Source of the DNA: Sphyrna mokarran
Lineage: Eukaryota
DNA: 64,000 nt
NCBI GenBank assembly: GCA_024679065.1
Contig: JAGIQG010000014.1
Location: 43,896,001 to 43,960,000 of the forward strand
Direction: 5' to 3'
Positions within the stretch are counted from its first letter, which is position 1. The number at the start of each line of letters is the position of its first letter. Of this stretch, positions 6,001 to 12,000 are shown piece by piece. The position numbers were made by a program.

Positions 6001-9000
6001 GGATTTCAGGCAGCAAGAGGTCACAGACATGAATTTGGTGAAACAGTCCTTAGCAATAGGTGAGCCATCCAAAAGAAGCTTGAATTTGTTCATCTTCTGT
6101 TTTTTTTTGGTGCCAAATTCTCTCTCTCTGTCCACTAGAAAACGTTTAAGAAGTGGTTTCAACCTTTCCTGGAGCTAGTCCTACGCCCTGCCAGATTTCA
6201 CTGCTGACCCCAAGATTGAACATCATTTCTATGACTGACGATGGAAGTTGAAACAAAACATAAATCACATCATTGGACCCTGATGTTTAGATATTGATGT
6301 GATCCACACCTGTGTTGTATGGGTGCCTTCCCCACAACAGGATACAACACAGTTGAAATGGCAGCAAGTACAAATGAACTGGAAATGCACTGTGTTGAGA
6401 CCAATCACTATTTTGATAAAATGCCTGTCCCATTCCAGCCAAATGGGAAAGGTTTAAATCATGCCTAGTGTACCTACAACCAGAATATATTTAGTATTTT
6501 CTGCCACAATTCTACATTATTTAAGAATAAATTCCAACATTTTTAAGAACAACAATTACTAAGCAATCCTTTCAAAATATTGACACCATCCAAAATAATT
6601 ATTGGTGTAACATAATTTCTTTCTTTAATTTACAAGTGTGATTACTGTAGAGGGAAATGTTAAGAACAATTTCAAAAATCATAGTTGAGCATCTTATACA
6701 TCTTTTAAAAAAACACAGAAAATGTTTCAGAAGTCAGTAATCAGCTGTAGGGAAAACAAGACAATAACTCAGGCTCATGTCCTTTCAAGTGATCGTTCTG
6801 TGGGTGTTGGCACAGAATTCTCTCACTTCTGCTCCATAGTAAAGCCAGCAGGATATTCCTTCCTCAAATTGACTGAGATGATAAAATGACTGTTGAGTTG
6901 TTTTTAAGTTTTACGGAAGGGTTTGAGTGTGAGTGGATATAACTTGCATAGAGGTCAGTGGTGGAATAGGATTTACAGGCATCTCTGTTGGAATATAACA
7001 TGGACTTTCCATGTGGTTAGGTTCAGCTAATTTATTCTTTTGTGTGTTATTCTTATGATCTTGCTTGTCTGTTGTGCCATTTAGATTTGATTGTATTTGT
7101 ACGTCTGGGGACTCAGGGGTTGGGTCAGAGTGTGTGGCCAGAGGTGGTGAAAATAAGTTTGAAAACTGCATTCTTGGTACATATGTAGGTCTCAAGGCAT
7201 TTGGATATAGAACAAATGGGGAGAATGGGGATGCACAATATGTTTGCTGAGGTATTACTATTTCAACATAGCAACCTGTTTCTGGATCTAACAGCATTTT
7301 ACGTGGGGATTGTACTGATGCTTCAACGAAGTAATGTTTTCCAGTCTCTGGATCAATAAGTAACTTCTTGTCCATGAAGCAATACTGAAAACAAGGGAAT
7401 TGGGGGTTGGCCAGAAAGTGAGGAGATTCAGGGACCTTATAACATTTTTCCACAACACTGGGAATTTGTCTGGTTGAAGAAAATGCTTGTTGTTCCTGTT
7501 TTTGAGGATCTAAGGTTTCCCAATTTTGCTGGTGAGGGCTAATTGTTGTTGAATAGTGATCGAGTTTAGGAATATCAGGGTGAAGTGAAGCAGGCATTTG
7601 TATTTGGGGAGGTACCTGTAGTTTGTGTTCTCCAATAGGAATGGTCAGATAATTTGCTCGGTCTGATACTGATGCTTCCTCTTGAACACTTGCCTTGCTG
7701 ACTGGACTTGTTTTTGTTTCTAAGGACTGTTGCTTGGTTTGGTCACCAATTGTCTTAGTGGGTAACTTAACATCAGGGTTAATAGAATCAAGCAGAGTCA
7801 TGTTCGTATTTGTAAAGTTTAAACTAGCCTGTGCAGCCTGTGTAGCCTTATTAACTATTGTATTGCAAACATCAGCTGAAAATGCTGTTTTGCCATGAAC
7901 ATCTTGAGTTTTAGTCTCTTGAACTGAGTTTTGTGACGAAATTTTGATAGTCTCTGGACAATTTGATGATTCCAAAGAAGCAGCACTGCTTTCTGTGGTT
8001 TTGACGGATATTAAATTGATGTCACTAGGGAGTTGGACCTGCGTATGTACAATTTTGTTATTCCTGGATTCTGAACAGTCTTTATTGACATTTTGTCCTC
8101 CTTCCTCTGAAACCATTGAAATTTTGTTATCTTTAAATGATTGTAATTCACTTATGAATGTTATCCCAACTTTTTCTGTTGCTGGTGTCATTTCAGATTT
8201 GACTGTGTCTTTTCGGCTATCATGTTCAATTTTAAATTCTTTCTTGTTCTGCTTACAGCTATTTAATAGATTGTTTTGACCTTCCATTATATTATGGATC
8301 TCTCCATTAAGATGATTAATTAGAGGTGACAATTTGCAATTTGAACTAGAACCATACAAAGACCTATTTTCTTCTTGCTGCCCTGTTTGCATTTCATTTT
8401 TATGCTTATTTATATCTGGTAATATATTAGTATCTTCAGCTTTCAAAACCAATGTACTCTGATTATCATGGGCAAGTTCTATCTGACCTTTAGGATCATC
8501 AAGCAACAAACTGGCACTTCCTACATTAAGAGCAGAACTTTCAAACATTTTGTTTTGATCTTCCAAACCAACCTGAAGTTCGCTTTCCATTTCATGCTTT
8601 TCAAGTGACAATGTGGCCTCTTCATCATCTAATGTTAAATTTTCTAGCATTTTATTTTGTTTTTCCAATCTAAATTGAATTTCTTTCTTATGTGTACCTT
8701 TTCTCAGAAATTTTTGAGTTTCTTCATCATTTGTAGTTGACTTGCTTAAACATTTATTTTCATTTTCCAATCTCATTTTAAAGTCTTTATTTGGGTCATT
8801 TTTCCAAAGTGATACATCTTTGTTACCAGTATTTGAATTATGGAATGGTTCATTTTGATTCTTCAAATTAACTTGAAAATCATTTTGGAGATAGCTTTTT
8901 TCATTTGACAGTTCAACATGATCATCATCATTATTAAAAATCCCGAGCTGATTATTTTGAATTTCCATCTTGGATTGAACACCCGTTTTAGGTTCAGCCT

Positions 9001-12000
9001 TTCGTTGTGATGAATCTACATTTTTGTTTAAAGATGAATTCATTAAAAGCGCAGTTTTGTTTTGTGTTGTCTCTGGAATCTCTCCTCTTGGCTCATCTGC
9101 ATCAAACGTGATGGAAATTTCTTCCTTGCTTGAATTAGACTTTGTTGAAAGTTCATTTTCTAATTCACTTTTAACATTTCCAGTAGGCTCCATTTTACTC
9201 AATGACTTTTCAGTATTTTCAGTTGTTGTGGCAGAACTTGGTAAACGATTGCTCATATTTTCCAGTCCTACCTGGAATTCATTATTTTGTTCTCCTTTTC
9301 CAAGAACCAAATCAGCAATTTCATTATTTAGCACAAAATTGGTTAAATGATTTTTCTGATGCTCTGTTCCAACTTGGACTTTCATAACTGATAATTTAGA
9401 CTCTTGATTATTTGAAATCGATAAGGCTTGGATTTTCCTTTCAGGTGTTACTTCATTAGTTATGCACATTAAATGACCATTTGCATCGCTTTCATCCTCT
9501 TTAATAGGGTAAATTTTACAATCTATTCTTTTAGCAGAAATTGTTTTGTTTTTCTGTTTATTAAATGGAATAGGCAGCTGGAAGTCAGAGGAAAATATTC
9601 TCGAAATACCTGAATTTCCTGTACAAGTACAATATTTCTTGTCAACTATATCATCATTGCTTTCAACTTTGTCAGCCTTCCTGCTTATTGATTGACATTG
9701 AATGAAAATTGGTGACAGTTTGTGCTGTGTTGCTGGAAGTGATTGCTCTAAGCTAGAAGGATTGTAAATTTCTTCTGGCACCTCTGACTTAGCCTTGATG
9801 TTACAGAATGTCAAAGCACTATAAGTATTTTGAACCAGCTTACTCATATCCTTGACATGAGAAGGTGGATCATCTGTTTTGCTTTTTATGGTTATGCTGT
9901 CTTTTGTATAAAGCTGGGAAACTTGTTCTTTCTCCAGTTCAGATTCAAATTTAAATGAAGTAGGAAGAATCTGATCCCTAAGGTCAGGGCCAGTAGGGTT
10001 AGAATCCATAGTAGGAGCATTCTCTTCCACAATACACAATGGACTGGTTTGTTTCATGTTTGCCAACTGAGAGTTACGTAGCATCTCTGGTGATTTTAAC
10101 ATAGTAATAATACTTGGTGCATTTATTTGGCGTGGATTGTTACCTGATTGAACATCATTTGTTTTGTCTTTATATGATGTCTGTTCACTTTGCACTTCTT
10201 CAGTAGCCTGTGACATGTAATCTGCATGTTTATTCTCTGAAATACATGATACATTTATAGTCTTCTTTTGCTCTGGTGCATTAATACATAAGTCCTGTAA
10301 CATGGGGCATGGTTTCTCAGGATTCAATTCAAACGTTCTCTCTGTTAGAATTTTATCTTGGCTATCTGGATTGTTTTCACTCCAAGTTCTAAAAAGACTG
10401 GTTGCACAGCCATTGAGGATGTTTGTGTTCTTCTTCCCATCCCAGCTTAAACCACCTTCACACTCTAAAGAACTGAAACTGTGTTTTTGTTCCATGTTTC
10501 TATTTTCCTCATTACTTGCATCATTTAATTCACACTCATTCTTTCTGAAATTGCCTTGGATGAAATTGAAAGGTTCAGATTTTGAAGTAGAATCTTCAGG
10601 TTGAATTTGTTGCGAAACTATAGTAGGAATGTCAAAATTTTCCCTTTTCACAAAGTTAGGGGTTGAGGAGATAGGAGAACTTGTATTCTTATCTAATTCA
10701 TGCTCTATTTTGAGACCTTGTTCAAACTGCATTTTCTTGGATATCACATTTGTGATAAGGTAGGATGCAAATTTATTCTTCAACAAAGGTCCATCGGGGG
10801 TTGTTGCATTATATTGCTGTTCACCAATACTCTCTTCATTTTTCATATCTGGGTTCTCCGCATGAGTCGTGTCTTCACAGTTTAGTAAACATTCTGAAAT
10901 TTCCTTTTTATTCTCAGTATCAACTGCTGAATCAACACAGACACAGGAATTAATGGCACCTCTTGAAGTAAAAACTTTTAATTCACTTCTCTGTTGTTTT
11001 CTGAGTTCAATTTGTCGTTTTGGGACTGTTCTGCTTGTTCTCAAATCTTTGCCTTTGTCTTGTGTTTCCACAACCACCTCAACACACTCACACTGTATTC
11101 TGTCAAGTGAGTCATCAAGTAATACCATGTTGCTTTCTTCAGCCTCAGCATGTAAAGCACAAGCTGTGTTGCTGCAATCTGAGGGCTCCTCATTATTGTC
11201 AAATGCACCAGTGTAATCTAACCCAAAAACGCAAGCTGACAATCTGTTTGTTTTGTGGCTTTCCTCTGACAAAGGTGATGAAAAATCAATGCATGCTTTA
11301 GAGTTATAAATGCCAAGGTAATCATCACTTGGACAAGACAAACTTCGAAAAGCCAAAGCGGTTAACTTTTGAACCTCGTAATCAGTCTCATCTAATTCAC
11401 TTGCCACGCTGGATGTTTCACTCACACAATCAGTTCTTATACTGTTAACACATGAATCATCTTTGAAACCATTTTCAAACTTATCTATTTGAAACATTTC
11501 TTCGGGGTCATTTAAACCAGGCTGCAGATAACAGCTCGGAGATTCATGTCTATTTAATCCAATCTTCTGAATTTTGGTGAGCTGCGCTGGGCTACCTCTC
11601 TCTTTGGTTTTGCTATTCTGAGCTGTGATTGACAATTGAACCTGTTGGTCTCCATTTCCTTCACAGTTCTCGATATCTGTGCCCCTAACTGATAGATCGT
11701 ACTCAGTTGATTTGCTGGCTATCCCTCGGCTATGTGATTTTCTATTTGTGGTTAATAAAGTATCATCAGGTACCAAAACACTGCAGCAAACATTTCTTTC
11801 TTCCTGAGAACCAGAAGTAGTTTCATATTCGAAGGATTTATTTTCATCAACAATTTTTACCATTGCTCTCTTACTATTTTTGTAATTGGAGTTAACATCA
11901 GGCTCACTCTTGTTATCTAATCTACTCTCCATCAGCTCTCCATTTAATTCACAGGCATCCCGCTCTAGATATATTCCACACAGCTCAGTTTTATGCTTAT

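What the first reader, a model, noticed from the sequence alone, without database searches (positions are those of the whole stretch)
8225..9382. Hidden ~33-aa x12 tandem repeat with 3-unit periodicity inside the PROB1-like protein
Seen: the translation aligns as consecutive units of 34,34,32,33,34,32,34,34,32,30,31 aa plus a partial unit. They begin KVQVGTEHQK, EFQVGLENMS, NVKSELENEL, EIPETTQNKT, GVQSKMEIQN, DFQVNLKNQN, DFKMRLENEN, EIQFRLEKQN, ELQVGLEDQN, QIELAHDNQS, EMQTGQQEEN and EIHNIMEGQN (consensus E/D-phi-Q-x-x-L-E-x-Q-N). Units 3, 6 and 9 are all 32 aa and end DEPRG, NDPNK and DDPKG, which suggests a ~100-aa super-repeat triplicated. Inference: this is an old, protein-level-constrained array of short helical motifs, possibly a multivalent filament-binding or spacer module. 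I do not know of such a repeat in mammalian PROB1 or C4orf54.
Basis: partly seen in the sequence, partly recalled or inferred. Interest (0 to 1): 0.7.

Follow-up and report, generated by a model that had tools for sequence, protein, structure and literature searches.

The report
Old 34-residue repeat in shark PROB1-like protein
The middle of a large, mostly unstructured shark protein is built from about twelve worn copies of a 34-residue unit, a repeat shared by sharks, rays and chimaeras but not seen in bony vertebrates; the proposed 100-residue super-repeat is not real.

Summary
The repeat is real. In the 1902-aa single-exon ORF (6911-12619, minus strand), residues 1080-1469 show a 34-aa period (autocorrelation z=7.8; maximum over 1000 shuffles 4.37). 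Left out in turn, 6 of the 12 units are individually significant, 3 are marginal and 3 are degenerate. A model built from the window's units finds the array at the same place in all 10 elasmobranch orthologues. It also finds a collinear array in a paralogous chondrichthyan gene. It finds nothing in 93 other family members (bony-vertebrate PROB1, C4orf54 and si:ch73 types, plus shark C4orf54). No Pfam family, PDB sequence or paper I could search covers it.

The 3-unit super-repeat is not supported. Units three apart are no more alike than other pairs (p=0.41-0.93). The 32-aa lengths of units 3 and 6 come from recent 2-aa deletions that other sharks lack, where these units are 34 aa. The lag-100 peak is absent in Mustelus, the closest relative.

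AlphaFold2 gives no fold (mean pLDDT 36.7 and 40.4), so "helical motifs" is unsupported. The motif positions (phi-Q-V-x-L-E-N-Q-N) are better conserved than the linkers.

Best reading: a disordered array of a selected short motif, possibly multivalent docking sites. Linkage to DNAJC18 suggests the gene is the PROB1 counterpart. Modest interest.

The parts
6911..12619 (-). Single-exon ORF of 1902 aa, a DUF4585-family protein (chondrichthyan 'A' type, PROB1-like)
   Evidence: ORF and translation. Full-length orthologues of 1903-1988 aa in 10 elasmobranchs at 43-87% identity and 99-100% coverage.
8213..9382 (-). The repeat array, residues 1080-1469: 12 units of 30-34 aa
   Evidence: Lag-34 autocorrelation z=7.8. 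The unit HMM tiles 1080-1470 without gaps.
9281..9382 (-). Unit 1 (aa 1080-1113), individually significant
   Evidence: Leave-one-out 16.7 bits; 0 of 500 shuffles reach it.
9179..9280 (-). Unit 2 (aa 1114-1147), individually significant
   Evidence: 18.6 bits; 0 of 500 shuffles.
9083..9178 (-). Unit 3 (aa 1148-1179), marginal. It is 32 aa here because of a 2-aa deletion shared only with Mustelus.
   Evidence: 25 of 500 shuffles reach it. It is 34 aa in Carcharodon, Scyliorhinus, Pristiophorus, Chiloscyllium and Stegostoma.
8984..9082 (-). Unit 4 (aa 1180-1212), degenerate
   Evidence: 125 of 500 shuffles reach it. Rays lack 20 aa of it.
8882..8983 (-). Unit 5 (aa 1213-1246), marginal
   Evidence: 8 of 500 shuffles reach it.
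8786..8881 (-). Unit 6 (aa 1247-1278), significant. It is 32 aa here from a 2-aa deletion that Mustelus lacks.
   Evidence: 19.7 bits; 0 of 500 shuffles. It is 34 aa in Mustelus, Scyliorhinus and Pristiophorus.
8684..8785 (-). Unit 7 (aa 1279-1312), the strongest unit. Its second half is a conserved basic patch.
   Evidence: 29.3 bits; 0 of 500 shuffles. Conserved block; several of its positions are among the invariant and nearly invariant columns.
8582..8683 (-). Unit 8 (aa 1313-1346), significant
   Evidence: 27.9 bits; 0 of 500 shuffles.
8486..8581 (-). Unit 9 (aa 1347-1378), significant. It is 32 aa in all seven sharks.
   Evidence: 23.0 bits; 0 of 500 shuffles. Lengths.
8396..8485 (-). 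Unit 10 (aa 1379-1408), degenerate in the window
   Evidence: 415 of 500 shuffles reach it. It is in register with the array, and the same position scores 15-17 bits in Mustelus and Scyliorhinus with the window-only HMM.
8303..8395 (-). Unit 11 (aa 1409-1439), degenerate in the window
   Evidence: 238 of 500 shuffles reach it. The same position scores 25 bits in Pristiophorus and 31 bits in Chiloscyllium with the window-only HMM.
8213..8302 (-). Unit 12 (aa 1440-1469), marginal. It is a whole unit, not a partial one.
   Evidence: 11 of 500 shuffles reach it. The HMM covers aa 1440-1470.
7193..7372 (-). DUF4585 domain (aa 1750-1809), the only known family match in the protein
   Evidence: Pfam PF15232, E=2.3e-16, 60 bits.
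43321..43467 (-). J-domain exon of the neighbouring DNAJC18 gene (linkage marker, not part of the repeat)
   Evidence: 100% identical over 49 aa to DNAJC18 of Mustelus asterias and Cetorhinus maximus.

Best explanation
Residues 1080-1469 of this shark DUF4585 protein are an ancient, degenerate tandem array of a 34-residue unit.

Shown:
- The first ~13 residues of each unit carry a conserved motif, roughly E-phi-Q-V-x-L-E-N-Q-N-K-x-L. The rest is a polar N/S/T/D/E/K-rich linker that often ends in (D/E)-P.
- The array is at the same place in all elasmobranch orthologues examined.
- A collinear array lies in a paralogous chondrichthyan gene.
- The window-region search has one significant, collinear hit in the chimaera protein P0018.
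- There is no DNA-level repetition.
- No fold is predicted.
- The motif positions are more conserved than the linkers.

Inferred:
- The array arose by unit duplication before the two paralogues split, hence before the crown chondrichthyan radiation.
- The motif has been kept in many units by purifying selection, not by gene conversion.
- The segment is intrinsically disordered.
- It works as a string of equivalent short linear motifs: multivalent, individually weak docking sites separated by flexible spacers. The likely target is a repeated or oligomeric partner in the cytoskeleton or sarcomere, by analogy with the only studied relative, CEFIP.

My odds: real ancient repeat about 0.97; disordered about 0.7; multivalent docking as the function about 0.35. 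The 100-aa super-repeat is not part of this picture.
For: Periodicity:
- Lag 34 z=7.8, against a shuffle maximum of 4.37.
- In one search, lag 34 was the top lag in 8 of 11 A-type proteins (window included) and 2nd or 3rd in the other 3. It was also the top lag in 5 of 6 elasmobranch B-type paralogues (Heptranchias z=7.0).

HMM transfer:
- The HMM built from the window's units scores above the best of 600 shuffled decoys (6.8 bits). It finds 12, 10, 12 and 10 units in Mustelus, Carcharodon, Scyliorhinus and Pristiophorus, 8 and 6 in the two orectolobiforms, 3-5 in the four rays, and 0-6 in eight B-type or chimaera proteins.
- Four B-type proteins that were not used in training show 3, 6, 6 and 4 units with the iterated HMM.

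Homologous position:
- The A and B arrays align collinearly between homologous flanks with the same ~34-aa spacing.
- Unit-to-unit orthology among A proteins is 12 of 12 (Pristiophorus) and 9 of 12 (two rays).

Selection at protein level:
- Inter-unit consensus strength correlates with orthologue conservation (rho=0.50, p=0.0024; motif positions 0.60 against 0.49 for the others).
- In-register nucleotide identity is 0.48, 0.54 and 0.40 at codon positions 1, 2 and 3, against a null of 0.29, 0.33 and 0.32. Identical-codon use is 0.54, against 0.46 expected.
- TRF finds nothing.

Disorder:
- AlphaFold2 mean pLDDT 36.7 and pTM 0.15 with 11 sequences. Mean pLDDT 40.4 and no secondary structure with 23 sequences.
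- Composition N 12.8%, E 11.5%, K 9.7%, S 9.2%; mean hydropathy -1.09; net charge -20.

Family context: passages of PMC11178530 describe C10orf71/CEFIP as an intrinsically disordered protein of Z-disc and myofilaments. Yeast two-hybrid candidates there include ACTN2 and VIM.
Against: - The array is the least conserved stretch of the protein among orthologues (0.463 mean pairwise identity, against 0.542 overall).
- Its indel density is not lower than elsewhere (7.9 distinct gap runs per 100 aa, against 4.2-8.2). Nothing therefore points to a spacing or ruler constraint.
- Three of 12 units are degenerate in the window, and rays have lost most of unit 4.
- Bony-vertebrate relatives do without it.
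- No partner, expression or localisation data exist for this gene.
- That CEFIP belongs to the same family is recalled, plus one source-given name ('cardiac-enriched FHL2-interacting protein-like'). [quoted passage not shown]
- Low pLDDT from shallow alignments does not prove disorder.
- Unit-level register between the A and B arrays is not resolved (shift 0 mean 17.8, shift +3 mean 19.0).
Confidence: 0.45

Rival explanations
1. Relic or entropic spacer. The array is an old internal duplication that now serves only as a flexible, acidic, polar linker between the conserved N-terminal blocks and the C-terminal DUF4585 region. The residual unit similarity reflects the slow evolution of chondrichthyan proteins, not a function for each motif.
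For: - It is the lowest-conservation region of the protein.
- Indel density is like or above the rest.
- Three of 12 units are degenerate, and rays lost 20 aa of unit 4.
- None of the 93 other family members has the array. Several bony-fish members carry quite different repeats (periods 9, 18, 19 and 52-58 aa); the paddlefish 19-aa array lies at about residues 1001-1400, the others nearer the N-terminus.
- No fold is predicted.
Against: - The same consensus survives in many units of two paralogues that share only about 22-27% identity with the window over this stretch.
- Motif positions are better conserved than linker positions.
- Unselected copies of that age should no longer resemble each other.
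Confidence: 0.3
2. Folded repeat domain. The 34-aa units are structural repeats (an alpha-solenoid such as TPR, nebulin-like helices, or a beta-hairpin solenoid) that AlphaFold2 misses because the alignment is shallow.
For: - The period matches TPR (34 aa) and is close to nebulin (35 aa); both figures are recalled.
- Hydrophobic residues alternate at unit positions 2, 4 and 6 and again at about 23, 25 and 27.
- The first AlphaFold2 run drew helices over aa ~1276-1291 and 1308-1360, at pLDDT 45-65.
Against: - No Pfam repeat family matches, even at E<=10 on the array or E<=1 on the whole protein.
- No PDB sequence match better than E=0.11.
- The helices vanish with the deeper 23-sequence alignment.
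- pTM is 0.14-0.15.
- The composition is strongly polar.
Confidence: 0.1
3. A triplicated ~100-aa super-repeat: three-unit blocks of 34+34+32 aa duplicated as blocks.
For: - The window's unit lengths are 34,34,32,33,34,32,34,34,32.
- Lag 100 gives z=5.07.
- Units 3, 6 and 9 end in (D/E)-P-x-(G/K).
Against: - Units three apart are no more similar than other pairs. Permutation p=0.49 (12 units) and 0.41 (9 units) in the window; 0.93 and 0.41 with orthologue-averaged scores.
- Unit 3 is 34 aa in 5 of 7 sharks, and unit 6 is 34 aa in Mustelus, Scyliorhinus and Pristiophorus. The 32-aa lengths are therefore recent.
- Lag 100 gives z=0.7 in Mustelus, 1.2 in Scyliorhinus and 1.1 in Pristiophorus, where lags 68 and 102 appear instead.
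- (D/E)-P endings also occur in units 2 and 4.
Confidence: 0.04
4. Chance or compositional artefact in a low-complexity region.
For: The region is compositionally biased, and three units are not individually significant.
Against: - Lag-34 z=7.8 exceeds all 1000 shuffles.
- The same period appears independently in orthologues and paralogues.
- The HMM transfers across species above every decoy.
Confidence: 0.01

Closest known systems
DUF4585 (PF15232) family: PROB1, C4orf54, zebrafish-type si:ch73-43g23.1 (and CEFIP/C10orf71, by recall)
   Same: - The C-terminal DUF4585 domain.
- Shared conserved blocks at about aa 350-650 and 1600-1900.
- A large, single-ORF, polar protein.
- The gene lies about 31 kb from a DNAJC18 exon.
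   Different: None of 93 other family members examined has a unit-HMM hit or a BLASTP HSP over aa 1051-1550. These are bony-vertebrate PROB1, C4orf54 and si:ch73 types, plus shark C4orf54. None has lag 34 as its dominant, significant period. The array is confined, as far as detected, to two chondrichthyan paralogues.
Nebulin/nebulette 35-residue actin-binding repeats (PF00880)
   Same: Similar period and a long tandem array. The proposed idea of one weak site per unit is the same.
   Different: No Pfam Nebulin hit. No robust helix is predicted. There is no conserved super-repeat. The motif differs: nebulin's SDxxYK is recalled, not tested. No evidence of actin binding.
Tau/MAP2/MAP4 31-32-residue microtubule-binding repeats
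   Same: A disordered tandem array, a short conserved motif plus linker per unit, and multivalent filament binding as a working analogy.
   Different: No sequence relation (no Pfam hit). Here there are 12 units against 3-5 (recalled). The array is acidic (net charge -20), whereas tau repeats are basic (recalled).
Titin PEVK ~28-residue repeats (disordered spring)
   Same: A degenerate tandem repeat in a disordered, charged segment. This is the model for the spacer rival.
   Different: Proline is only 2.6% here and N is 12.8%. The period is 34 aa, not ~28 (recalled). No Pfam match.
TPR (34-residue helical hairpin repeat)
   Same: The period of 34 residues only.
   Different: No TPR-clan Pfam hit even at E<=10. 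No helices with the deeper alignment. Very polar composition.

Membership tests
DUF4585 (PF15232) protein family | Match to the Pfam DUF4585 model above its gathering score | tested here: met
   E=2.3e-16, 60 bits against a cut-off of 27, at aa 1750-1809. 29 of the 30 hits carry PF15232 in the precomputed column; P0018 is the exception.
PROB1 orthologue group | Conserved linkage with DNAJC18 | tested here: met
   A DNAJC18 J-domain exon lies at 43321-43467 (-), 100% identical to Mustelus DNAJC18. Turtle PROB1 (P0020) and DNAJC18 (P0192) do as well. The human PROB1-DNAJC18 adjacency is recalled only.
PROB1 orthologue group | Groups with tetrapod PROB1 in a gene tree | tested here: inconclusive
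   The quick LG+G4 tree (37 rows, 710 columns) gives three clades meeting at what is in effect a trifurcation. They are bony PROB1 plus si:ch73; C4orf54 including Carcharodon P0046; and chondrichthyan A+B. The complementary taxon sets fit orthology, but the tree does not show it. Odd letter make-up and long branches were flagged.
Nebulin repeat (PF00880) | Match to the Pfam Nebulin model | tested here: not met
   No hit at E<=1 on the whole protein or at E<=10 on the array.
Nebulin repeat (PF00880) | Helical units and a conserved higher-order super-repeat | tested here: not met
   No secondary structure in the 23-sequence AlphaFold2 model. No period of 2, 3 or 4 units in unit similarity.
TPR / alpha-solenoid repeats | Pfam TPR-clan match and a predicted helix-turn-helix per 34 aa | tested here: not met
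Spectrin-like ~100-106-aa three-helix repeat | A conserved period of ~100-106 aa and three helices per repeat | tested here: not met
   The lag-100 peak is seen only in the window and Carcharodon. No Pfam spectrin hit. No robust helices.
Disordered tandem short-linear-motif array (functional class, not a sequence family) | Predicted disorder plus a motif conserved above its linker background in several units | tested here: met
   pLDDT 36.7 and 40.4. Motif positions 0.60 against 0.49; rho=0.50, p=0.0024.
Disordered tandem short-linear-motif array (functional class, not a sequence family) | A binding partner that recognises the motif | not testable with these tools
   No partner is known and no expression or interaction data exist for this gene. 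No complex prediction was run, because there is no candidate partner to name.

The most novel reading that the evidence does not exclude
The 34-residue array is an ancestral gnathostome module of the PROB1/DUF4585 family that only cartilaginous fishes retain in recognisable form. It would lie along a periodic cytoskeletal or sarcomeric polymer, one motif per subunit, much as nebulin or tau repeats do. This poorly characterised family (CEFIP, if a member as recalled, is linked to cardiomyopathy) would then gain a first testable molecular activity.
Probability: 0.07. Interest if true: 0.6.

Novelty: new member of a known kind. Interest (0 to 1): 0.3.

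Why it matters
PROB1 and C4orf54 have no described function in the papers I could search, and their reported relative CEFIP is only partly characterised. Here the slowly evolving chondrichthyan members keep a legible internal architecture. The central region is a string of about 12 copies of one selected motif.

That gives a concrete peptide to test for partners. It also dates the module to before the paralogue split in cartilaginous fishes. 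Family members also differ in what repeats they carry: 34 aa here, and 9, 18, 19 or 52-58 aa in bony fishes, though mostly at other positions in the protein.

It is a modest, descriptive advance. It is a new, unannotated repeat family in a protein of unknown function, with no demonstrated activity. Removing the 'super-repeat' claim also removes the most eye-catching part of the original finding.

Tried and rejected
- DNA-level tandem repeat: TRF found nothing in the array.
- Super-repeat with a period of 2, 3 or 4 units: permutation tests were all non-significant.
- Length or spacing constraint (the 'ruler' idea): indel density in the array is not lower than elsewhere.
- Known repeat families: Pfam on the array at E<=10 gave only a Myb_CC_LHEQLE hit at E=3.3. 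PDB sequences gave a best E of 0.11, a muscle-related coiled-coil protein, not significant. The ESM Atlas gave no usable hit.
- Structure: two AlphaFold2 runs were both low confidence. No fold search was run, because such models give meaningless matches.
- Exhaustive phmmer of the array against 1.84 billion representatives: only 3 proteins reached E<=0.001. All are chondrichthyan A-type proteins already in hand: P0006, P0009 and P0018.
- Local calibration showed that a window-only query cannot reach the paralogues at database scale. This blank therefore says little about distant relatives.
- Unit-level register between the A and B arrays is unresolved.
- The CEFIP 2017 paper is not held.
- No complex prediction was made, as there is no candidate partner.

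Full report
**What is there.** The finding lies on the minus strand inside one long ORF, 6911..12619, encoding 1902 aa. The window has no N. The only known family match is Pfam DUF4585 at aa 1750-1809 (E=2.3e-16). The unit lengths are 34,34,32,33,34,32,34,34,32,30,31 and a last unit of 30. The quoted endings of units 3, 6 and 9 are also there.

**Is it more than chance?** Yes.
- BLOSUM62 autocorrelation over aa 1080-1470 peaks at lag 34 (z=7.8) and lag 100 (z=5.07). The largest z at any lag in 1000 shuffles was 4.37.
- Unit pairs score z=23 above within-unit shuffles.
- When each unit is left out of the model and scored against 500 shuffles of itself, units 1, 2, 6, 7, 8 and 9 are never reached. 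Units 3, 5 and 12 are marginal (25, 8 and 11 of 500). Units 4, 10 and 11 are indistinguishable from shuffles (125, 415 and 238 of 500).
- So the window alone shows six solid units in a 34-residue frame. The weaker ones are placed by register and by relatives.
- TRF finds no DNA tandem repeat in the array.
- In-register nucleotide identity is highest at codon position 2 (0.54) and lowest at position 3 (0.40). The nulls are 0.33 and 0.32. Identical residues use the same codon 54% of the time, against 46% expected from codon usage. The similarity is therefore kept at protein level.

**Relatives.**
- A whole-length search found ten full-length elasmobranch orthologues (type A): Mustelus asterias at 87% identity down to rays at 43-44%. 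It also found a second group at 28-32% (type B).
- An HMM made only from the window's 12 units, judged against 600 shuffled decoys (best decoy 6.8 bits), finds 12, 10, 12 and 10 units in Mustelus, Carcharodon, Scyliorhinus and Pristiophorus. It finds 8 and 6 in Chiloscyllium and Stegostoma, and 3-5 in four rays, always at the same place. It finds 0-6 units in eight B-type or chimaera proteins, and none in the 11 bony-vertebrate proteins of that call.
- Without any model, lag 34 is the top autocorrelation lag in 8 of 11 A proteins and 2nd or 3rd in the other three. It is the top lag in 5 of 6 elasmobranch B proteins (Heptranchias z=7.0).
- A second search, from the Heptranchias B protein, brought 122 hits.
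- Before further counts I dropped 24 of the 140 proteins then in hand: 21 without a source name and 3 primates.
- Of the remaining 116, unit hits above decoys occur only in the 23 chondrichthyan A, B and chimaera proteins. Four B proteins never used in training show 3, 6, 6 and 4 units. There are none in the other 93: bony-vertebrate C4orf54, PROB1 and si:ch73 types, and Carcharodon's true C4orf54.
- In the periodicity scan of 86 of these proteins, no bony-vertebrate protein has a dominant, significant lag-34 signal.
- Six bony-fish proteins do reach z 4.2-6.0 at lag 34: P0049, P0053, P0057, P0067, P0108 and P0112. In five of them another period dominates (9, 18 or 90 aa; top z 4.8 in P0108 and 11-24 in the other four). 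In the sixth (P0067) lag 34 is the top lag, but z=4.2 lies within the range of the shuffle maxima.
- BLASTP of the window protein against the 93 gives 183 HSPs, and none touches aa 1051-1550.
- An exhaustive phmmer of aa 1060-1490 against 1.84 billion representatives gave 3 proteins at E<=0.001, all A-type: Chiloscyllium, Amblyraja and Callorhinchus P0018, the last collinear at its residues 1040-1352.
- My calibration showed that this single-sequence query could not have reached even the B paralogues at that database size. It excludes close look-alikes elsewhere, not distant ones.

**Age and origin.**
- Among A orthologues the units correspond one-to-one. Each window unit best matches the same-numbered unit in 12 of 12 cases for Pristiophorus and 9 of 12 for two rays (alignment). 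There has been no concerted evolution since sharks and rays split.
- The A and B arrays align collinearly between homologous flanks, with the same ~34-aa spacing. B has one extra unit between A's units 11 and 12.
- Unit-by-unit register between A and B is not resolved: shift 0 has a mean of 17.8 and shift +3 a mean of 19.0.
- Callorhinchus has one gene that groups with B (SH-aLRT 99).
- I infer that the array predates the A/B split and the crown chondrichthyans.

**The super-repeat.** This part of the finding fails.
- Units three apart are no more alike than others. Permutation p=0.49 and 0.41 in the window; 0.93 and 0.41 with scores averaged over 11 orthologues. Mean scores by offset are 22.6, 17.1, 21.0, 17.0, 19.1, 16.5 and 23.2 for offsets 1 to 7.
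- The orthologues show a basic length of 34. Scyliorhinus reads 34,34,34,33,34,34,34,34,32,30,31,32.
- Unit 3 is 32 aa only in the window and Mustelus. Unit 6 is 32 aa only in the window and Carcharodon, at different alignment columns.
- Accordingly the lag-100 peak is seen in the window (z=5.0) and Carcharodon (4.1). It is absent in Mustelus (0.7), Scyliorhinus (1.2) and Pristiophorus (1.1), which show lags 68 and 102 instead.
- (D/E)-P endings also occur in units 2 and 4.

**Structure.**
- AlphaFold2 on aa 1060-1490 with the 11-sequence alignment gave mean pLDDT 36.7 and pTM 0.15. It drew low-confidence helices only in units 7-9 and near unit 12.
- With 23 sequences (A, B and chimaera) on aa 1075-1475, it gave mean pLDDT 40.4, pTM 0.14 and no secondary structure.
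- The array is N/E/K/S/L-rich with 2.6% proline, mean hydropathy -1.09 and net charge -20.
- No Pfam repeat family, PDB sequence or Atlas cluster matches.
- I read this as an intrinsically disordered segment. Shallow alignments make the call provisional.

**Constraint.**
- The array is the least conserved part of the protein (0.463 against 0.542 overall). Its indel density is not reduced.
- Within units, positions 6, 7, 9 and 10 (L-E-x-Q-N), with positions 16 and 19, are the best conserved (0.55-0.70).
- Across the 34 unit columns, inter-unit consensus correlates with orthologue conservation (rho=0.50, p=0.0024).
- The HMM consensus is EIQVGLENQNNLLTNSNLNDEEVSLSLDKNEPKG.
- The same consensus persists in many units of two paralogues that are only about 22-27% identical to the window here. 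This argues for selection on the motif.

**What gene is it?**
- A J-domain exon at 43321-43467 (-) is 100% identical to DNAJC18 of Mustelus and Cetorhinus. The listing is dominated by DNAJC18.
- I searched this exon alone and did not join exons of that spliced gene.
Turtle PROB1 and DNAJC18 do as well.
- The quick tree gives three clades: bony PROB1 plus si:ch73; C4orf54 including a Carcharodon gene; and chondrichthyan A+B. They meet at what is in effect a trifurcation.
- 'PROB1-like' is therefore reasonable, from linkage and complementary taxon sets, but not proven.
- Mammalian PROB1 was outside the length range searched and CEFIP never appeared. Both stay untested.

**Literature.**
- Full-text searches for DUF4585 found 2 papers, seen as listing only. 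Searches for PROB1, C4orf54, CEFIP and C10orf71 are (listings and abstract starts).
- None of the titles or abstract starts in these listings concerns the repeat or the structure of these proteins. I did not read the papers, so this is weak evidence that nothing is in print.
- Passages of PMC11178530 describe C10orf71 as intrinsically disordered and located at the Z-disc and myofilaments. Its supplementary figures were not available to me.
- The 2017 CEFIP paper is not held.

**Verdict.** The finding is a real, old, previously unannotated 34-residue repeat, about 12 units in A and one more in B. It sits in the disordered centre of chondrichthyan PROB1-like proteins and their paralogue. It most likely acts as a string of selected short motifs. 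The 100-aa super-repeat and the helical reading are not supported. Function is inferred, not shown.

Noticed in passing
window 43321-43467 (-) and 52628-52984 (-); 52001-54000: The neighbouring gene is DNAJC18. The J-domain exon is 100% identical to Mustelus and Cetorhinus DNAJC18. A likely first-exon ORF beginning MEAGLQEAERC lies in the window's most GC-rich 2-kb bin (0.479), probably its promoter or CpG island.
   Followed up: partly
window 53063-53246: A 38-bp tandem repeat of 4.8 copies (88% matches; 19-bp sub-period) lies just upstream of the putative DNAJC18 first exon. It creates spurious repetitive ORFs on the + strand.
   Followed up: no
window 13540-14322 (-), 17944-18222 (+), 61386-61724 (+): Three ORF fragments look like remnants of retroelements. 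13540-14322 and 61386-61724 share a conserved C-terminal tail (…FSLE.RRLRGxLIEVY…). 13540-14322 gives a weak RVT_1 hit (E=0.019). 17944-18222 lacks the tail and gave only a weak, sub-threshold Pfam hit.
   Followed up: partly
window 8684-8750 approx. (aa ~1290-1312, second half of unit 7): A basic patch (…DEETQ…RKG.HKK) is the best conserved stretch of the array across the 11 A proteins. It looks like a nuclear-localisation-type or phospho-regulated site. The B paralogue does not keep it basic.
   Followed up: no
related proteins P0037, P0036 (Polyodon), P0053, P0056, P0057, P0060, P0063, P0065 (teleosts): Other family members carry quite different strong tandem repeats: a 19-aa period with z up to 37.8 in paddlefish, 18 or 36 aa in eel and mormyrids, and 52-58 aa in cyprinids. 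Repeat expansion appears to recur in this family's variable regions.
   Followed up: no
related proteins P0013, P0033, P0035 versus P0046: The source name 'C4orf54 homolog' is applied both to the chondrichthyan B clade and to Carcharodon P0046. Only P0046 groups with bony-vertebrate C4orf54 in the quick tree. The B genes may be misnamed.
   Followed up: partly
related proteins P0008-P0011 (rays), aligned to window aa ~1190-1210: All four ray orthologues lack about 20 aa of unit 4 (13 aa left). Mobula and Hemitrygon also lack about 10 aa of unit 8. The array tolerates partial unit loss.
   Followed up: partly
related protein P0017 (Narcine, named 'titin homolog'): This B-type model also carries a reverse-transcriptase Pfam domain (PF00078). 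That suggests a gene model fused with a retroelement.
   Followed up: no
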